Shown piece after piece: positions 3,400-10,620 of a stretch of DNA of 64,000 bases. The notes below the pieces were generated by a model. It worked only from the letters and a program-made list of their open reading frames with translations, was not told the origin of the DNA and ran no database searches. Positions within the stretch are counted from its first letter, which is position 1, and each line of letters opens with the position of its first letter. A program made the translations under genes and the position numbers. The stretch lies in NCBI RefSeq assembly GCF_009914755.1, contig NC_060928.1; one strand, 5' to 3'. This DNA comes from the human T2T-CHM13v2.0 reference genome, Homo sapiens.

Positions 3400-3792
3400 T
3401 TAAGCAGCCTTCATTCTCCAAGAAAACCACTTTGTGCCTTCTTTTCTCAAAACCTCACACAACTTCCTCCCCCTCACCATTAGCTTACTAGTATTTCACT
3501 GCAAAAATAAGTCCTCAGAAACCTGCATCATAATCCCGCCAAATCTCCCAATCACCCCCATTAGTCTCATCTAGTCTGCCTTCCCTAGTTAGTATTGATA
3601 AACTCTGTGTGTTCCCATCTAAAGCTAACTTTTCTGCCTGTGATTTGGATATTGTCTCTTTTCAGTAGTTTAAAGATACTTAAACTGCTTCTGCATTTAT
3701 CCCCTATCTCTCCTGCAGCATTAACCTGTCTCTACTAGATCATTCTCACATTCCAAAATTGCTGTAATATCTCCCATAAAAAAAAGAAATCT
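3400..3792 (+). mobile_element. L2 fragment (upstream part of a split element)
   Basis: Pyrimidine-rich L2 ORF-like sequence ending 'gctgtaatatctcccataaaaaaa'. Left boundary approximate. Confidence 0.7.
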
Positions 3793-4002
3793 GTAAATTT
3801 GTTTAAGTTTCTTGTAGATTCTGGATATTAGCCCTGTGTCAGATGGATAGATTGCAAAAATTTTCTCCCATTCTGTAGGTTGTCTGTTCACTCTGATGAT
3901 AGTTTCTTTTGCTGTGCAGAAGCTCTTTAGTTTAATTAGATCCCGTTTGTCAATTTTGGCTTTTGTTGCTATTGCTTTTGGTGTTTTAGTCATGAAGTCT
4001 TT
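3792..4002 (-). mobile_element. Internal L1PA ORF2 fragment (211 bp) with no tail of its own
   Basis: Translates [52 protein letters not shown]. About 94% identical by manual comparison to 5799-6009 in the opposite orientation. Confidence 0.93.
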
Positions 4003-4029
4003 AGCTGGGAGGCAGGAGGAACTTCTCTA

Positions 4030-4600
4030 AGACTCAGGAATTCTACTTTTAGTTATACATATTAAACAATCTCAAATATTGAGGTCATAAGGAAAATATT
4101 ATAAGGTGTTCATTCCAACACTGCAGAGATATTTATAACTGCCAAATAGTAGGATGTATAAGTTGTGGTATATTTATACAGTGAAGTAGTATGCAGCCCT
4201 TAAAATGAATATAGTAGAGCTACTTTCATCAGTGTGGATTTCTCTCAAAAGCATAATGTTGAATTAGAAAAGCAAGGTAAAGTATGATGCATTGAGTATG
4301 ATACTATTTATAAAGAGCTTGAATGCCTGAGAAACAATACTATATCATGTGTATGCCCATACACATGTATAATACATTTTACATGATAATTATAAACACT
4401 GGTTTTAGAACCCTAGGGAAAAAGTGAAGGAAATGGAGTTGGGATGTACTCAACTGTTGGTGTGGGATGTTTTTTCTTTAAAAATGAAGATTGAAACAAA
4501 CATGACGTAAGGGTAAGATCTGATAAAGTTGAGTGGTTGATACACAGGAATTTGTTATTACATACTCTATTTTACAGCTACTTTTGAAATTTTTCTCAGG
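4030..4600 (+). mobile_element. Old L1M (L1ME-like) 3' fragment
   Basis: Degenerate 'gtggtatatttatacagtgaagtagtatgcagcccttaaaatgaat...tctcaaaagcataatgttgaattagaaaagcaag', typical of L1M 3' ends. Boundaries approximate. Confidence 0.65.
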
Positions 4601-4702
4601 TAAAAAGTATAAAACTAACATAATACAACAATTTTTAAAATAAAATGATTGCTACCAAAAAACAACAAAAAAAACCCTTCAGACTGGTAGCTTTAAACAA
4701 CT

Positions 4703-4913
4703 TTAAAGCTTGAGCTCCTTCTAAATTTCCCAAAGTCTTTCAGCACTCTCTTTCAACTGGGCCTCCTCTTCAGAAGTCACCTTTATCTTTATAAGATCTG
4801 TAGTACTATTCTGTCCTAGGATACAAGGAATGCTAAGGAATGTTACTTCATTTATCCCATAAAAGCTCTCAATTATGATGGAAACTGGATGCACCCTCTT
4901 AAGATTATTCAAA
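4703..4913 (-). pseudogene. LDHAL6EP: LDHAL6B-type pseudogene, 3' part
   Basis: Translates [68 protein letters not shown]. Premature TAG at 4721-4723, natural TAA at 4703-4705. Continues exactly where the 5' part stops. Confidence 0.92.
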
Positions 4914-6860
4914 GAGGAAGTCAAATTGTCTCTGTTTGCAGATGACACAATTGTATATTTAGAAAACTCCATCATCTCAGGCCCAAATCTCCTCAAGCTG
5001 ATAAGCAAATTGAGCAAAGTCTCAGGATACAAAATCAATGTGCAAAAATCACAAGCATTCCTATACACCAATAATAGACAAATAGAGAGCCAAATCATGA
5101 GTGAAATTTCATTCACAATTGCTACAAAGAGAATAAAATACCCAGGAATACATCTTAAAAGGGATGTGAAGGACCTCTTCAAGGAGAACTACAAACCACT
5201 GCTCAACGAAATAAGAGGACACAAACAAATGGAAAAACATTCCATGCTCATGAATAGGAATAATCAATATTGTGAAAATTTGGCCATACTGCCCAAAGTA
5301 ATTTATAGATTCAATGCTATTCCCATCAAACTACCACTGAATTTCTTCACAGAATTGTAAAAAACTACTTTGAAGTTCACATGGAACCGCATATCCAAGA
5401 CAATCCTAAGCAAAAAGAACAAAGCTGGAGGCATCACACTACCTGACTTCAAACTATACTACAAGGCTACAGTAACCAAAACAGCATGGTACTGGTACCA
5501 AAACAGATATATAGAACAATGAAACAGAACAGAGGCCTCAGAAATAACATCACACATCTACAACCATCTGATCTTTGACAAACCAGACAAAAACAAGCAA
5601 TGGGGAAAGGATTTCCTATTTAATAAATGGTGTTGGGAAAACTGGGTAGCCATATGCAGAAAACTGAAACTGGATCCCTTCCTTACACCTTATACAAAAA
5701 TTAAATCAAGATGGATTAGAGACTTAAATGTAAGACCTAAAACCATAAAATCCATAAAAGAAAACCTAGGCATTACCATTCAGTACATAGGCATAGGCAA
5801 AGACTTCATGACTAAAACACCAAAAGCAATGGCAACAAAAGCCAAAATTGACAAATGGGATCTAATTAAACAGAAGAGCTTCTGCACAGCAAAATAAACT
5901 GTCATCAGAGTGAACAGGCAACCTACAGAATGAGAGAAAAGTTTTGCAATCTATCCATCTGACAAAGGACTAATATCCAGAATCTACAAAGAACTTAAAC
6001 AAATTTACAAGAAAAAAACAAACAACCCCATCAAAAAGTGGGCAAAGGATATGAGCAGACACTTTTCAAAAGAAGACATTTATGCGGCCAACAAACGTGA
6101 AAAAAAGCTCATCATCACTGGTCATTAAAGAAATGCAAATCAAAACCACAATGAGATTCCATCTCATGCCAGTTAGAATGGCGATCATTAAAAAGTCAGG
6201 AAACAACAGGTGCTGGAGAGGATGTGGAGAAATAAGAATGCTTTTACACTGTTGGTGAGAGCATAAATTAGTTCAACCATTGTGGAAGATAGTGTGGTGA
6301 TCCCTCAAGGATCTTGAACTAGAAATACCATTTGACCCAGCAATCCCATTATTGGGTATATACCCAAAAGATTATAAATCATTCTGCTATAAAGACACAT
6401 GCACACGTATGTTTATTGTGGCACTGTTCACAATAGCAAAGACTGGGAACCAATCCAAATGCCTATAAATGATAGACTGGATAAAGAAAATGTGGCATAT
6501 ATACACCATGGAATACTATGCAGCCATAAAAAAGGATGAGTTCATGTCCTTTGTAGGGACATGGATGAAGCTGGAAACCATCATTCTCAGCAAACTAACA
6601 GAAGAACAGAAAACCAAGCACTGCATGTTCTCACTCGTAAGTGGGAGTTGAACAATGAGAACACATGGACACAGGGAGGGGAACATCACACACTGGGGCC
6701 TGTCAGGGGGTCAGGGGTCATGGGAGGGATAATATTAGGAGAAATGCCTAATGTAGATGACAGGTTGATGGGTACAGCAAACCACCACAGCACGTGTATA
6801 CATATGTAACAAACCTGCACATTCTGCACATGTACCCCAGAACTTAAAGTATAAAAAATA
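4914..6860 (+). mobile_element. 5'-truncated L1 (L1PA7-like): ORF2 RT/C-terminus and 3' UTR
   Basis: Encodes [11 protein letters not shown]...GYKINVQKS...WIKKMWHIYTMEYYAAIKK. The 3' UTR ends ccccagaacttaaagtataaaaaa. The TSD pair is 4901-4913 and 7278-7290. Confidence 0.95.
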
Positions 6861-7277
6861 CTTTTGCACTAACCTAATAGTAAAACATGACTAGATTAAT
6901 CAGCTCATACAATGTGAATTATTGACCAGTATGAAACAGAGACCAAAGTCAGTGCTGGCTACTACTTAGGAGATGCAAAGATAATTCCTCTGATGGATTT
7001 CTAGATTCATTTAATTGCTTAATGACTTAGAGATAATTAATTCTCAACAAATATTCATTTGAAATAAATTCTGACAAGTTGTCCATAATCCTTCCAGAAT
7101 TCAGTAATAAATCAAATGCACCTTTTTTTTTTCTCCTTGTAACTTCCCATTGACAGTGTCATGTCATTAAAACCCAGGCTATGTGTGGCTGCTCTTTCCC
7201 ACTGCAGTGAAAGACATTTCAATGGGAAATGAGTTTGCCTATTAAAAAATGTTTACTGTTGTTTTCTATTAAAAAAA

Positions 7278-8222
7278 AAGATTCTTCAAAATACTTTCTG
7301 TTAAATCAGCTACAGATAGGCCAATGGTCCAATTAGTACAACCTTTCATTTTAACTATCTCATAGCCACAGGCAATCACTTCTTTGTGGACTTTTTCCCA
7401 CTGTTCAGGATCTTTATCAGTTCCTATATCTGAGTTCAGATCCGTCAGAGGGATGCCAGCAATATTGACTCCACTCCACACAGGAATACTTGAGTCCCTA
7501 TGCTGTCCAAGAATCCACCTATGACAGCTTTCAGAGTGGATATCAAGCCTTTGCCCAGTGAAGAAACGGAAATGGGGAGTGTCCAGATTACAGCCACTTC
7601 CAATAACACGGTTTTGGGGAAATACACTCAATTTCCAGAATACATAAGTTACAATATCCAGTAAATTAGAAACTACTATCAGTTTGTGGTGGGGATTGCA
7701 TCGGGTAATACTGGAAATAATTAATTTAAAAATGATCACATTTCACTGGACTATATCAAGGTGTGTTTCTCCTTTTGCTGGAACACCTGCTGTAATAATG
7801 ACTAAGTTGGACTTTGCAGTGACACTGTAGTCTTTGCTGAAAACAATGCTTGGCATTTTTATGGAAGGGCTGCCATGTTGAAGATCCGTTGTCTCACCCT
7901 TCAATTTGCCTTCGTCAACATCCACAAAGGCAAGTTTATCACCCAAACCTTTTAATAAGATGCTGAGAGCACAGGCCATGCCAACTGATCCAGTTCCTAT
8001 AATGGAGATCTTATTGGGATGAGCGGCCCCCTCCAAAGTGAAATTCTTGGCAAGTTCAAGCTTGACAGTCACCATCTTGGAAATGGGAGTGAAGGTCCAG
8101 CCGCCCCTGAGTGGGATGTGTGTGGCCTCATGGGGGCACTGAGCCAGCCCCCAACAAAGGAAATGAGCTCCTGCAGCACCTATTCTCTTGCTGGTGGGCA
8201 GAACTCCTGCAGCTCAGCTCAT
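7278..8222 (-). pseudogene. LDHAL6EP: LDHAL6B-type lactate dehydrogenase pseudogene, 5' part (intronless)
   Basis: One reading frame: a 49-codon extension MS*AAGV...FTPISK, then MVTVK...[12 protein letters not shown]...DLQHGS...IVQ*NV...IGSGCNLD...ESILKNL. In-frame TGA at 8214-8216 and 7743-7745. The family call is firm; the exact symbol is recalled from locus position and is less certain. Confidence 0.9.
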
Positions 8223-9326
8223 GGTCGTTAGCTCACGCAAGAGGCAAATGGATGAAAGCAGCGGCAGAAATCTCCTTGAGGTGTGGAAGAAACCCTGACG
8301 GTTTGAAGGCCTCCTCGCCCTTTGCTACTGTGGCTGCGCAAGGCCACTCCCAGCTCGTGCAGGGCTCACAGAGACCTGGCCCCTTAATATGTTATTTTTA
8401 GTTTTACAAATATGTGGTATTTTTTACACCATTAAGACGGTTCCGAAAAAATGGACTGTGATCATTAAGGCCAAAAGTAATTTTAGCTTTGCCTTTCAAA
8501 GTGCCATATTTTGTTGCTTAGAGAAGCGCTGCACCTTTGCAATTATTTTTGTCATGGTGCTCAAACACGCTGAAACTAAGTACGATAGATGCAAAGACAA
8601 AGAGATGAGAATTCCAATCTCCACTCCACACTTGGACTTTGAAGAAGTTTGACTATGTGAGCTTCTTTTAAAAAGTCAATATTACAATGTGATAATAAGA
8701 CTTGTCCTAACTACTTTACAAGGTTCCTGTGAGAAAGTCAGGGTGAAAAGTCTAGGGAGCTTTAAAAAGAGTATTGTAACTATTTGACAAACTATGTCAC
8801 TGAGTCAGTGACAAAACCAAGTCTTCTGATTTTTCCTTCTTCATGAAAATGATGCATTAAAAATTAAAGAAATAAAAGCTTAGAAGTCCTCAATTATCTG
8901 CTTTTTTGAAGATAAGATAGTCATGGATAAATGCAATCATTCGATAACTAGTAATGTTTAGATAATCTCAAATCCTTCTACCAGAACTTTAATAACATTT
9001 ATTCAAAATCAAATATCTGCCTCTTTCCCCAATCACCATCTCCTTTATAATTAAAAAGTGAGGACTATGAAAAACAAGAAGGCTTAACCCATGAATTAAA
9101 ATGATATTTCTCTAATATACTGAAATTTTGCCTTATGAATGGTTAAACTACATTTTCTTTAAGTTGGCAAGTCTTAATATGTGTTTACCTATTTATATTA
9201 TCCCAAATAAGAAATTTGATGGAATCTTTTCACTTCTCAACCAGTTGTTTAATATTTGGTATCAGGATGCATTCTATTTGTAAATATAATAGTTCTATCT
9301 CAGAAAAAAAAAAAAGAAAGAAATCT

Positions 9327-10620
9327 ATTTTATTCTCTCCTCCCCTAGCTTCCCCATTTCTCAGCTTTTTTTGATAGCAACATTTCTCAAAACAATTATC
9401 TTTACTCTCTGGTGTCCACTGTAACAGCTCTTGTCAAGATCCCCAGCCAGACACAGTGGCTCACGCCTGTAATCCCAGCACTTTGGGAGGCTGAGGCGGG
9501 TGGATCCCGAGGTCAGGAGTTCGAGACCAGCCTGGCCAATATGGTGAAACTCTCTCTCTACTAAAAGACGAAAAAATTACCCAGGCATGGTGATGTGCAC
9601 CTGTAGTCCCAGCTACTCAGGAGGCTGAGGCAGAAGAATCACTTGAACCCGGGAGGCAAAGGTTGCAGTGAGCCGAGATCGCGCCACTGCACCACTGCAC
9701 TTCAACCTGGGCAACAGAGCAAGACTCTGTCTCAAAAAAAAAAAAAAAAAGAAAAGAAAATCCCCAGCACCTCCATCTTGCCAAATTTATTCGTCCATTC
9801 TTAGCTCCCATCTTACCTGAACCTTCAGCAGCCTGTGATTTAACTGATTCACTCTCCTTATTGAGCTGTTTCTTCACCTGGCTACTGGTGAAGTCTTGGT
9901 TTTCCTCCCCTTTTTCAGTGTTCTCTGCCTATATCTTCTCCTATTCCTATACAAATTAGGGTGACCCAGGACTTAACTCTTACCCCTCTGCTCTATCTAC
10001 ACTCACAGCCAGGATTGTGCCATCCTTTCTTATGGTACCAAATACTGTTTACATGGTGATGTCTCTCAAATTTACGTCTTCCCTCTCCGTCTTTCTGCTT
10101 GGGCTTTTGGTAGGTAATTCCTGCCTAAAACTTCCAAAACTCCTTATTGTAGCCTATTGGGTCCTACAATCTGGTTCACCCCTTACCTATGCAACTTCTT
10201 TGCCTGCTGTTTTCTCTCCTTTGTTCCTTCAGCTTCCACCACATTTGGATTCTTTCTTATCTTGTAACTGCCAAGCAGCTTCTTCTCACAAAGTCTTTGC
10301 ATTTCCCATTCTTTTGGCCTAGAATGTTCTTTCCTCCAATTTTTGCATAGCTTGTATCTTTACTCCAGTGTCAAATGTATTTCTTCAGAGGCCTTCCCCT
10401 ATCACCCTGTCTAAGATAGTACCTTTTTTACTTGTTTTATTTTTTTTTCTTAGTACTTATCAGCACTTTATATTTTATTTTTCCTCTGTGGTAATATGAG
10501 TCTAAAGAGGGCATGTAATTAATCTATCCACCCCTGTTTCCCTAAGGCTTATAGTATTGCCTGGCTTATAGTAGATTTTCAACAACTTTTCGTTGAGTGA
10601 ATGAATATATAAATGAATGG
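9327..10620 (+). mobile_element. L2 (downstream part, to the 3' end), interrupted by an Alu
   Basis: Runs from 'ctagcttccccatttctc...gcaacatttctcaaaacaattatct...gctcttgtcaagatc' to the 3' terminus 'gcctggcttatagtag...gttgagtgaatgaat'. Confidence 0.8.
9445..9760 (+). mobile_element. Alu (AluS, Sg-like)
   Basis: Full dimer with A-tail. TSD aagatccccag (9436-9446) / aaaatccccag (9757-9767). Confidence 0.96.

What the first reader, a model, noticed from the sequence alone, without database searches (positions are those of the whole stretch)
3778..9326. The LDH pseudogene and its genomic flanks appear to have arrived as antisense cargo of one retrotransposition event, splitting an ancient L2
Seen: AAAAAAAAGAAATCT (3778-3792) recurs as AAAAGAAAGAAATCT (9312-9326), 14/15 identical with AAAGAAATCT exact. 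The right copy follows a + strand A-tract (9304-9315) with a variant poly(A) signal AATATA at 9283-9288. Removing the block rejoins '...atctcccataaaaaaaagaaatct|attttattctctcctcccctagcttccccatttctcagc...', which reads as contiguous L2 by recalled consensus. The block is about 3.1 kb without the later inner L1. It holds an inverted L1PA fragment, an old L1M remnant, the whole LDHAL6-type CDS on the minus strand, and about 1.1 kb of sequence upstream of the LDH ATG. The LDH copy has no poly(A) or TSD of its own at its 3' end. Knowledge: TSD, tail and an AT/AAAA-type site are hallmarks of L1 target-primed reverse transcription. Inference: this is not an ordinary processed pseudogene. An intronless LDHAL6 locus, with its promoter-side flank, was duplicated via an antisense read-through RNA, a route that can move a gene together with its regulatory DNA.
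Basis: partly seen in the sequence, partly recalled or inferred. Interest (0 to 1): 0.85.

Follow-up and report, generated by a model that had tools for sequence, protein, structure and literature searches.

The report
LDH pseudogene moved as antisense cargo
A dead lactate-dehydrogenase gene copy in an SLC4A4 intron arrived, with about 0.9 kb of DNA from in front of it, as a backwards-read RNA pasted in by the LINE-1 machinery; the mechanism is known, but no locus it could have been copied from survives in this complete human genome.

Summary
AAAGAAATCT flanks the block (3783-3792, 9317-9326). The right copy follows a 12-A tail. A profile of 20 other L2 copies places the two outer flanks consecutively, overlapping only in the duplicated A-rich stretch.

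The block (3793-9315) is a LINE-1-type insertion with composite cargo:
- an inverted 211-bp L1PA piece;
- an L1M-like 3' end with its own A-tail (paralogue on chr5);
- a spliced LDHAL6-type copy on the minus strand, cut 28 nt after its stop;
- about 0.9 kb of its 5' flank.

A chr8 paralogue holds that flank next to about 190 bp of the same LDH 5' UTR. It has AATAAA where the window has AATATA, and no A-tail. So the LDH copy and its flank were copied through a plus-strand, LDH-antisense, polyadenylated RNA.

No LDHAL6B-type locus shares the flanks, and the left flank maps elsewhere. The cargo is 73-77% identical to its paralogues, while the inverted L1 piece is only about 2.4% decayed. Either the direct source is lost (favoured) or the L1 piece came later.

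The inner L1 carries its own 3' transduction from chr3 (90% identical). The mechanisms are known, so interest is modest.

The parts
3650..3777 (+). Left half of the split L2 element (reverse-transcriptase region)
   Evidence: Aligns to positions 4-92 of a profile of 20 other genomic L2 copies, E 1.9e-9. The motif at 3760-3777 occurs 609 times in the genome against 77 for the reversed control.
3778..3792 (+). Left copy of the target-site duplication, AAAAAAAAGAAATCT. The implied nick on the bottom strand is TTTT/A.
   Evidence: 14 of 15 identical to 9312-9326; the last 10 are exact.
3793..4003 (-). 211-bp L1PA ORF2 fragment, inverted. Its 3'-most L1 base abuts the duplication (twin-priming geometry). 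No L1 3' end and no tail.
   Evidence: The best 40 scored of 2671 candidate copies are 95-97% identical. 198 of 211 identical to the inner L1. 5-6 differences from the majority of 20 L1PA copies, none shared with the inner L1.
4004..4015 (.). Short filler between the inverted L1 piece and segment A. The boundary is uncertain by about 10 bp.
   Evidence: No L1 or chr5 homology here.
4016..4657 (+). Segment A: 3' end of an L1M-like sequence, containing AATAAA near 4640.
   Evidence: 356 of 488 (73%) and 148 of 199 (74%) identical to chr5 C5:33725207-33726134. Positions 4144-4276 hit several other loci, and one of these also matches the end of L1 ORF2.
4658..4673 (+). A-tail of segment A (AAAAAACAACAAAAAAAA, together with the two A before it).
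   Evidence: The chr5 paralogue runs on as CCTATTTG with no A-tract at this point.
4678..4906 (-). 3' part of the LDHAL6-type processed copy: last 69 codons, stop at 4702-4700, then only 28 nt of 3' UTR.
   Evidence: Homology to LDHAL6A, LDHAL6B and three other copies stops at 4677-4678, while all of those run on into a longer 3' UTR. Translation.
4907..6866 (+). Nested, 5'-truncated L1PA (a later event).
   Evidence: Splits the LDH frame cleanly. Best genome hits for 5782-5992 are 94-95%.
6867..7279 (+). 3' transduction carried by the nested L1 (6867-7270) plus its A9 tail (7271-7279). The AAGATT duplication lies at 4901-4906 and 7278-7283.
   Evidence: 378 of 418 columns (90.4%) identical to chr3 C3:194927704-194928117. 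There, ATTAAA is followed by no tail.
7280..8385 (-). 5' part of the LDHAL6-type copy: coding region from the LDHA-type ATG at 8076, the LDHAL6B-type N-terminal extension, and the 5' UTR.
   Evidence: 81% to LDHAL6B on chr15 and 79-91% to LDHAL6A exons. LDHAL6A exon 1 and exon 2 are joined without the 438-bp intron. Family homology is visible to about 8371-8385.
8386..9303 (+). Segment C: AT-rich 5' flank of the LDH copy, ending 15 nt after AATATA (9283-9288).
   Evidence: With 8199-8385 it is colinear with chr8 C8:87614458-87622911 at 72-77%. chr8 has AATAAA at the matching place and then AAGTACTAG, with no tail.
9304..9315 (+). Poly(A) tail of the outer insertion (12 A).
9312..9326 (+). Right copy of the target-site duplication. 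Its first A bases merge with the tail.
9327..9441 (+). Right half of the split L2. An Alu follows at about 9442-9767.
   Evidence: Aligns to L2 profile positions 86-196 from window 9312, E 1.7e-9. Alu hits.

Best explanation
Window 3793-9315 is one insertion made by the LINE-1 machinery (target-primed reverse transcription) into an L2 in an SLC4A4 intron. It was about 3.15 kb when it landed. A nested L1PA with its own transduced tail added 2.37 kb later.

The template was a polyadenylated plus-strand RNA. It ran antisense through an LDHAL6-type processed pseudogene and on through about 0.9 kb of that pseudogene's 5' flank. It was cleaved 15 nt after a poly(A) signal that is still AATAAA in the chr8 paralogue.

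A second cDNA, primed from the other side of the break on an L1PA RNA, gave the inverted 211-bp L1 piece at the 5' end (twin priming). It was either the same read-through RNA or a separate L1 RNA.

The cargo was already an old composite at its source:
- an L1M-like 3' end with its own A-tail (relative on chr5);
- the LDH copy, cut 28 nt after its stop and abutting that A-tail;
- the flank whose relative on chr8 keeps about 190 bp of the same LDH 5' UTR.

The cargo is only 73-77% identical to those relatives, yet the L1 piece is young. The direct source locus must therefore have existed until the L1PA era and is now missing from this complete genome.

Shown: the boundaries, the duplication, the tail, the L2 continuity, the splicing, the chr8 and chr5 relations, and the ages. 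Inferred: twin priming, the order of events, and the lost source.
For: Insertion hallmarks:
- 10 of 10 (14 of 15) duplication at both ends, a 12-A tail and a TTTT/A nick site.
- The L2 halves are consecutive in a profile of 20 independent L2 copies, at positions 4-92 and 86-196.
- The inverted L1 piece has its 3'-most base next to the left duplication.

LDH copy:
- It is spliced; LDHAL6A intron 1 is absent.
- It has no tail or duplication of its own.

chr8 relation:
- chr8 holds the homologue of 8199-9302 in the same order, including LDHAL6A exon-1-like sequence (58 bp at 77.6%, E 8e-8; 45 bp at 73%, E 6.5e-4).
- It ends with AATAAA and no tail where the window's tail begins.

Ages:
- Per-lineage divergence is 8.8-11.0% for C against chr8, 10.3% for A against chr5, and 4.4% for the nested L1's flank against chr3.
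- The window's LDH has 76 lineage-specific changes in 714 polarised columns, 10.6%.
- The inverted L1 piece differs at 5-6 of 211 sites from the majority of 20 L1PA copies. P(6 or fewer differences) is 7e-4 or less if it were as old as the cargo copies.
- No copy of 4004-4720, 7280-8450 or 8290-9300 at 90% or more exists in T2T-CHM13. The same search did find the 91% chr3 source of the nested L1's flank.
- An intact duplication is more likely for a young event: P(10 of 10) is 0.40-0.54 at 3-4.5% decay against 0.12 at 10%.
Against: - The source locus is not in a gapless genome, so a loss must be assumed.
- Twin priming normally leaves the direct part starting near the inverted part. Here at least the last 860 nt or so of L1 are missing between them, and no sense L1 3' end is present.
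- The RNA must have read through the AATAAA and A-tail of segment A.
- A against chr5 and C against chr8 have nearly the same divergence (18.0% and 19.1%). A single old chimeric event predicts this; under this reading it is a coincidence.
- By point estimate the inverted L1 piece (2.4%) looks younger than the nested L1 (4.3-4.4%), which should be the later event. The 95% interval of 0.8-5.5% covers it.
- No other primate genome could be examined.
Confidence: 0.55

Rival explanations
1. An old chimeric retrocopy made directly from chr8 and chr5 transcripts. Roughly twice as long ago as the nested L1, reverse transcription started on the tail of a chr8 plus-strand RNA (antisense to an LDH retrocopy then present on chr8) and ran to that RNA's 5' end in the LDH 3' UTR. 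It then switched to the tail of a chr5 L1M-derived RNA, and the product was sealed into the L2 with the duplication seen today. chr8 later lost the LDH body. The 211-bp L1PA piece entered much later at the 5' junction, for example as a patch of a double-strand break.
For: - A against chr5 (18.0%) and C against chr8 (19.1%) are equally diverged, and the LDH lineage is 10.6% diverged. This is as expected if all three were copied at one time.
- Each plus-strand segment ends in its own A-tail exactly where its paralogue has AATAAA and no tail, so no read-through of a poly(A) signal is needed.
- No lost locus is needed, only a deletion on chr8, where an L1M 3' end without its tail abuts the LDH remnant.
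- An L1 only 73-75% identical to L1PA sits inside the chr8 homologue but not in the window. This fits an old split.
Against: - A tailless internal L1 fragment would have to land, with no duplication of its own, exactly between the left duplication and the 5' end of the old insert, and in the orientation expected for twin priming. No mechanism favours that base pair.
- The mismatches of the L1 piece are spread evenly, with perfect ends, so it is not an old piece overwritten by gene conversion.
- It shares none of the inner L1's 9-10 private variants, so it was not templated from that neighbour.
- A 10 of 10 duplication and a pure 12-A tail are less likely at 10% decay (0.12 against 0.40-0.54).
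Confidence: 0.25
2. An ordinary processed pseudogene. LDHAL6A or LDHAL6B mRNA was inserted here on the minus strand, the sequences on either side are local intron DNA and unrelated repeats, and the AAAGAAATCT pair is chance.
For: The LDH copy is intronless and colinear with LDHAL6A exons and with LDHAL6B. RefSeq lists it simply as a pseudogene (hub annotation).
Against: - There is no poly(A) and no duplication at the LDH ends, and the 3' UTR is cut 28 nt after the stop.
- The L2 halves that enclose the LDH copy and both flanks are consecutive in the family profile.
- The 5' flank recurs on chr8 joined to the same LDH 5' UTR.
- The chance of the 10-mer at a fixed place is 2.7e-6.
Confidence: 0.02
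3. A DNA-level (segmental) duplication of a chr8-like locus into this intron, with no RNA intermediate.
For: About 1.1 kb is colinear with chr8.
Against: - Homology to chr8 ends exactly 15 nt after the poly(A) signal, and a 12-A tail follows in the window only.
- A 10-15-bp duplication and a TTTT/A site flank the block.
- The left part comes from a different chromosome and carries its own tail.
Confidence: 0.03

Closest known systems
L1 3' transduction, partnered or orphan (read-through of an L1 into its 3' flank, which is then pasted elsewhere). Definitions seen as passages in PMC7058536. Moran 1999, Goodier 2000 and Pickeral 2000 are recalled, not read.
   Same: Unique non-L1 DNA ends at a downstream poly(A) signal, with an A-tail, a target-site duplication, a TTTT/A site and L1 sequence at the 5' side. 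The nested L1 in this same block is a textbook case; its flank is 90.4% identical to chr3.
   Different: For the outer event no source locus is found, no L1 lies upstream of any paralogue, and no sense L1 3' end precedes the cargo. The only L1 sequence is a 211-bp inverted internal piece.
Twin priming and L1 chimeras with other RNAs in opposite orientation. Passages in PMC13174262. Rates from passages in PMC12016303: 5' inversions in 18.4% of germline L1, 21.9% of somatic L1 and 3 of 23 processed pseudogenes. Ostertag and Kazazian 2001 was seen only in that reference list.
   Same: Two cDNAs of opposite orientation lie within one duplication. The inverted one sits at the 5' end with its 3'-most base next to the target.
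   Different: Here the tail-primed template is a non-L1 RNA and the inverted piece is L1. In the catalogued chimeras L1 is the 3' part. At least about 860 nt of L1 and an unknown stretch are missing at the junction.
Gene duplication by retrotransposon-mediated transduction (the AMAC1 family, by SVA; Xing et al. 2006, PMC1693794). Seen only as cited and summarised in PMC9917352.
   Same: A whole gene-sized unit with flanking DNA is copied to a new chromosome as passenger of a read-through transcript.
   Different: The passenger here is antisense to the transcript and is itself a retrocopy. It shows neutral decay (codon positions 24, 26, 25). No new gene resulted.
Template-switch chimeric retrocopies (U6/L1 and mRNA chimeras). 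Mechanism passages in PMC13174262. The Buzdin et al. papers are recalled, not read.
   Same: Segment A with its own A-tail is joined head-to-tail, in the same orientation, to the next plus-strand RNA copy, all inside one duplication.
   Different: If it happened, the switch is dated to the old cargo and not to the young L1 piece. It cannot be told apart from a nested insertion at the source.
Ordinary processed pseudogenes of the LDHAL6 family (chr15 LDHAL6B, and the chr12, chr6 and chr11 copies).
   Same: Intronless, colinear with LDHAL6A exons, and carrying the LDHAL6B-type N-terminal extension. On 444 shared columns it is 84.5% identical to LDHAL6A and 84.7% to LDHAL6B.
   Different: It lacks its own tail, its own duplication and most of its 3' UTR. 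It shares no flank with the other copies.

Membership tests
LINE-1-mediated (TPRT) insertion | Target-site duplication flanking the insert | tested here: met
   AAAGAAATCT is exact at 3783-3792 and 9317-9326 (14 of 15 over 15 bp). It occurs 3 times in the window against 0.93 expected. The L2 profile coordinates overlap only there.
LINE-1-mediated (TPRT) insertion | Poly(A) tail at the 3' end, downstream of a poly(A) signal | tested here: met
   12 A at 9304-9315, 15 nt after AATATA. The chr8 paralogue has AATAAA and no tail.
LINE-1-mediated (TPRT) insertion | Endonuclease-type nick site (TTTT/A) | tested here: met
   The bottom strand at 3777/3778 reads TTTTTTTT/ATGGG. TTTT/A is listed as a cut site in PMC12016303. 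The exact nick is blurred because the duplication starts with A bases.
Twin priming (5' inversion) | Inverted 5' segment and direct 3' segment from adjoining parts of one RNA | tested here: inconclusive
   Orientation and position fit. The direct part is not L1, at least about 860 nt of L1 are missing, and the source RNA is unknown.
L1 3' transduction (outer event) | A source locus where an L1 lies directly upstream of the transduced DNA | tested here: not met
   No copy of the cargo at 90% or more is in T2T-CHM13. The chr8 and chr5 paralogues have no L1PA in that position. Other genomes could not be searched.
L1 3' transduction (nested L1, 4907-7279) | L1 3' end followed by unique DNA that matches another locus, then a signal, tail and duplication | tested here: met
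   6853-7268 is 90.4% identical to chr3. There is ATTAAA, an A9 tail in the window only, and an AAGATT duplication. No L1 stands at the chr3 site today.
Ordinary processed pseudogene | Loss of introns | tested here: met
   LDHAL6A exons 1 and 2 are joined. The copy is colinear with six further exon matches.
Ordinary processed pseudogene | Own poly(A) tail and own target-site duplication at the cDNA ends | tested here: not met
   The 3' UTR stops 28 nt after the stop codon against the A-tail of segment A. The 5' end runs straight into the chr8-like flank.
Template-switch chimeric retrocopy | Two RNA copies in the same orientation inside one duplication, the upstream one ending at its own 3' end | tested here: inconclusive
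   Segment A ends at its AATAAA plus an A18 tail and is followed by the next plus-strand copy. A nested insertion at the lost source would look the same.
Functional retrogene moved with its promoter | Purifying selection on the coding sequence | tested here: not met
   Lineage-specific changes by codon position are 24, 26, 25 (chi-square p 0.96). There are in-frame stops.

The most novel reading that the evidence does not exclude
The SLC4A4 intron preserves the only complete copy of a vanished human locus. An LDHAL6 retrocopy with its upstream DNA was itself re-copied, backwards, by the L1 machinery in the L1PA era. The source was later lost from the lineage, leaving only a gutted relative on chr8. 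It would be a dated, second-generation 'retrocopy of a retrocopy with flank'. It would also be direct evidence that antisense read-through RNAs can carry a gene-sized unit plus its promoter side.
Probability: 0.5. Interest if true: 0.45.

Novelty: new member of a known kind. Interest (0 to 1): 0.35.

Why it matters
- It is a worked example of how a pseudogene that looks 'processed' can have reached its present site by a second, antisense round of retrotransposition together with DNA from in front of it. Parent assignment and dating from the coding part alone would then mislead.
- The RefSeq LDHAL6EP span (7278-8280) covers only the 5' part. The 3' part lies at 4678-4906, beyond a nested L1.
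- The age mismatch between cargo and L1 piece is a concrete, cheaply testable question: lost source or later patch.
- No gene function, regulatory effect on SLC4A4 or new mechanism is indicated.

Tried and rejected
- **Direct search for other L2 copies.** Searches with the flanks found only the window itself. BLAST against about 180 kb of held sequence found nothing. A first profile from 29 motif hits was spoiled by L1 antisense copies and matched only the left flank. It worked after a more specific motif search.
- **Was the inverted L1 piece copied from the nearby inner L1?** Templated repair, gene conversion or the same RNA were considered and rejected. There are 0 shared private variants among 5-6 and 9-10 differences, and the mismatches are evenly spread. 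The 20 reference copies were picked from the best hits of the two pieces, so they are not a random sample.
- **Were the inverted piece and the inner L1 made in one event with a distant second nick?** Rejected on geometry. The inner L1 has its own clean AAGATT duplication, and LDH is continuous across it.
- **ADAR editing of the cargo RNA.** An excess of chr8-A/window-G sites (35 against 9) has an ADAR-like 5' neighbour pattern. However, of the 7 sites that could be polarised, 3 are G-to-A on chr8 and 1 is A-to-G in the window. The LDH body and segment A show no excess. Not used as evidence.
- **Is the chr8 copy itself an insertion into an L1M?** Only one comparable L1M 3' end was at hand, so this stays inconclusive.
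- **Orphan remainder of the LDHAL6A 3' UTR (a trace of the source).** Only the gene itself was found, and the known paralogues were missed too, so the search was too insensitive to count.
- **Selection on the LDH frame.** There is no frameshift in the frame read and there are three in-frame stops (MS* at the head of the N-terminal extension, read; Q*N and EI*K). The substitution pattern is neutral.

Full report
**Observation.**
AAAAAAAAGAAATCT lies at 3778-3792 and AAAAGAAAGAAATCT at 9312-9326. A run of 12 A occupies 9304-9315, and AATATA lies at 9283-9288. The exact 10-mer AAAGAAATCT occurs three times in the window on both strands, against 0.93 expected from shuffles. The two relevant copies sit at places fixed by other evidence: the first base of L1 homology and the end of the A-tail. 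The chance of the 10-mer at one fixed place is 2.7e-6.

**The L2 is split by the block.**
Direct searches with the flanks found only the window. The 18-mer at 3760-3777 occurs 609 times in the genome against 77 for the reversed control. A longer L2 motif occurs 23 times against 0. From 26 L2 copies I dropped 6 that are visibly interrupted just after the motif and built a profile from the remaining 20.
- The left flank aligns to profile positions 4-92, ending at window 3787.
- The right flank aligns from window 9312 to positions 86-196.

The halves are consecutive and overlap only in the duplicated A-rich stretch. Everything from 3793 to 9311 is therefore inserted DNA.

**Anatomy, left to right (plus strand).**
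1. 3793-4003 is a 211-bp L1PA ORF2 fragment in inverted orientation. Its 3'-most L1 base lies next to the duplication.
2. About 12 bp of filler follow.
3. 4016-4657 is an L1M-like 3' end with AATAAA, followed by an A-tail at 4658-4673.
4. 4678-4906 and 7280-8385 are an LDHAL6-type copy on the minus strand.
5. Within that copy, 4907-7279 is a nested L1PA insertion.
6. 8386-9303 is AT-rich DNA, followed by the tail.

Without the nested insertion the block is 3148 bp.

**The LDH copy.**
- It matches LDHAL6B on chr15 at 81% and LDHAL6A exons at 79-91%.
- LDHAL6A exon 1 and exon 2 are joined without the 438-bp intron, so it is a processed copy.
- It includes the LDHAL6B-type N-terminal extension and the 5' UTR. 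Family homology is visible to about 8371-8385.
- On 444 columns shared by all copies it is 84.5% identical to LDHAL6A and 84.7% to LDHAL6B. Its terminal branch is 0.097.
- The frame has no frameshift where read. It has three in-frame stops (M S * at the head of the N-terminal extension, read; Q*N and EI*K).
- The 75 changes specific to this copy within the core coding region fall 24, 26, 25 on the three codon positions. It has decayed neutrally.
- At the 3' end, homology to every relative stops at 4677-4678, 28 nt after the stop codon. All relatives run on into a longer 3' UTR.
- It has no tail and no duplication of its own.

**The 5' flank and chr8.**
A whole-genome search with 8290-9300 found one other place, on chr8.
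- Alignment shows colinear homology from window 8199 to 9302 at 72-77%.
- On chr8 the homology is interrupted by Alus and by a 6.5-kb cluster that includes an L1 only 73-75% identical to L1PA, with its own tail.
- The chr8 stretch includes LDHAL6A exon-1-like sequence (58 bp at 77.6%, E 8e-8; 45 bp at 73%, E 6.5e-4). The junction between the LDH 5' UTR and the flank is therefore shared by descent.
- chr8 has no LDH body. There was no hit in the genome search and none in 30 kb around the site. An L1M 3' end without its tail abuts the remnant.
- At the far end chr8 reads GTAAATAAAATCTATCTATCTCA and then AAGTACTAG. The window has AATATA, the same 15-nt spacing and then the A-tail.

This is the mark of an RNA copy of a chr8-like locus, made on the plus strand, which is antisense to LDH. 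The chr15, chr12, chr6 and chr11 LDHAL6 copies share nothing with the window beyond 8262-8270.

**The left flank and chr5.**
Segment A matches chr5 at 73-74%. chr5 has AATAAA, the same 13 nt after it, and then CCTATTTG. The window has an 18-nt A-tail at that point. Segment A is therefore a separate polyadenylated copy, in the same orientation as the flank. It is joined tail-first to the truncated LDH 3' UTR. The two flanks do not come from one colinear locus.

**The nested L1 as a yardstick.**
After the L1 3' end at about 6866 come 400 bp that match chr3 at 90.4% (378 of 418 columns). chr3 has ATTAAA and no tail. The window has A9 and an AAGATT duplication. This is a standard 3' transduction. 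No L1 stands at the chr3 site today.

**Ages.**

| Comparison | Substitution divergence | Per lineage (Jukes-Cantor) |
|---|---|---|
| C against chr8 | 19.1% (147 of 769) | 8.8-11.0% |
| A against chr5 | 18.0% (78 of 434) | 10.3% |
| Nested L1's flank against chr3 | 8.3% (34 of 412) | 4.4% |

- The window's LDH has 76 lineage-specific changes in 714 polarised columns, 10.6%.
- The inverted L1 piece is 95-97% identical to its best 40 scored of 2671 candidate copies.
- It differs at 5-6 of 211 sites from the majority of 20 L1PA copies, about 2.4% with a 95% interval of 0.8-5.5%.
- The inner L1 differs at 9-10 sites.
- If the piece were as old as the cargo copies, 6 or fewer differences would have probability 7e-4 or less.

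The cargo's relations to chr8 and chr5 are therefore at least twice as old as the L1 piece at its edge.

**Explanation.**
Either way, the LDH copy and its 5' flank reached this intron as an antisense RNA copied by the L1 machinery.

The favoured full account (0.55) takes the structure at face value. It is one insertion of L1PA age, with twin priming giving the inverted L1 piece. The cargo was transcribed from a source locus that already held segment A, the truncated LDH and the flank.
- That source would be a sister of the chr8 locus.
- It is absent from T2T-CHM13. No copy at 90% or more was found, although the same search found the 91% chr3 source.

The main rival (0.25) is an old chimeric retrocopy made directly from chr8 and chr5 transcripts by template switching.
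- It explains the equal ages of A and C, and why each ends at its own poly(A) site.
- It then needs a tailless L1 fragment to land later at exactly the 5' junction, in the twin-priming orientation.

I found no sign that the piece was overwritten or templated from the inner L1. There are no shared private variants, and the mismatches are evenly spread with perfect ends. An ordinary processed pseudogene (0.02) and a DNA-level duplication (0.03) are contradicted by the missing LDH tail, the enclosing L2, the chr8 junction, the tail and the duplication.

**Comparison with what is known.**
- 3' transduction, including orphan events without the L1, is well described (passages in PMC7058536).
- 5' inversion by twin priming occurs in about a fifth of L1 insertions and in 3 of 23 processed pseudogenes (passages in PMC12016303).
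- L1 chimeras with other RNAs, in opposite orientation when twin-primed, have been catalogued (passages in PMC13174262).
- Whole-gene duplication by SVA transduction is known for AMAC1 (Xing 2006, seen only as cited in PMC9917352).

This case is a new member of that kind. Its unusual traits are a cargo that is itself a retrocopy carried backwards with its upstream DNA, and the missing source. No paper in the library holds 'LDHAL6EP'. 'LDHAL6B' with 'retrogene' gave one unrelated paper (search listing only).

**Limits.**
- No other primate genome, RepeatMasker or Dfam was available. The orthologous empty-site test, the subfamily names and the hunt for the source outside CHM13 remain open.
- L1M, L1PA and L2 labels rest on homology to copies in this genome and on recalled family features, not on a curated library.
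- The own-genome search scores only the best candidates and is insensitive below about 75% identity over short queries.

Noticed in passing
window 4907-7279; chr3 C3:194927704-194928117 (L034 1494-1907): The 'later inner L1' carries its own 3' transduction of about 400 bp from chr3. It is 90.4% identical, with an ATTAAA signal, an A9 tail and an AAGATT duplication. The chr3 site has no L1 upstream today.
   Followed up: yes
window 4678-4906 versus RefSeq LDHAL6EP 7278-8280: The RefSeq pseudogene span covers only the 5' part. The last 69 codons, the stop and 28 nt of 3' UTR lie 2.4 kb away beyond the nested L1. The 5' UTR homology runs on to about 8371-8385.
   Followed up: yes
window 8268-9302 versus chr8 (L005, L029): The substitution pattern is strand-asymmetric: 35 sites are chr8-A/window-G against 9 the other way (p 1e-4), in the same direction in all four sub-alignments. 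At those sites a 5' T is enriched and a 5' G is depleted. Polarity is unresolved: of 7 sites with outgroups, 3 are G-to-A on chr8, 1 is A-to-G in the window and 3 are ambiguous.
   Followed up: partly
chr8 C8:87614445-87614460 (L005 about 2446): On chr8 an L1M 3' end lacking its last bases and its tail abuts the LDH 5' UTR remnant. This is either a deletion that removed the LDH body, or the chr8 copy is itself a 5'-truncated insertion into that L1M. Only one comparable L1M end was at hand.
   Followed up: partly
L015, L016, L017 (chr15, chr12, chr6 LDHAL6 copies): These three copies share homology with each other, and partly with LDHAL6A genomic DNA. It extends well upstream of the 5' UTR and downstream of the LDHAL6A AATAAA. 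They may stem from longer transcripts or from DNA-level duplication of LDHAL6B rather than from independent mRNA copies.
   Followed up: no
window 7280-8213 and 4700-4907, minus strand: The LDH frame has no frameshift over about 380 codons and a single gap opening against LDHAL6B, despite 10.6% lineage-specific substitution. The chr11 copy has 13 gap openings against the window. The substitutions themselves are neutral by codon position.
   Followed up: yes
window 9442-9767: An Alu with a long A-tail sits in the right half of the split L2, outside the block.
   Followed up: no
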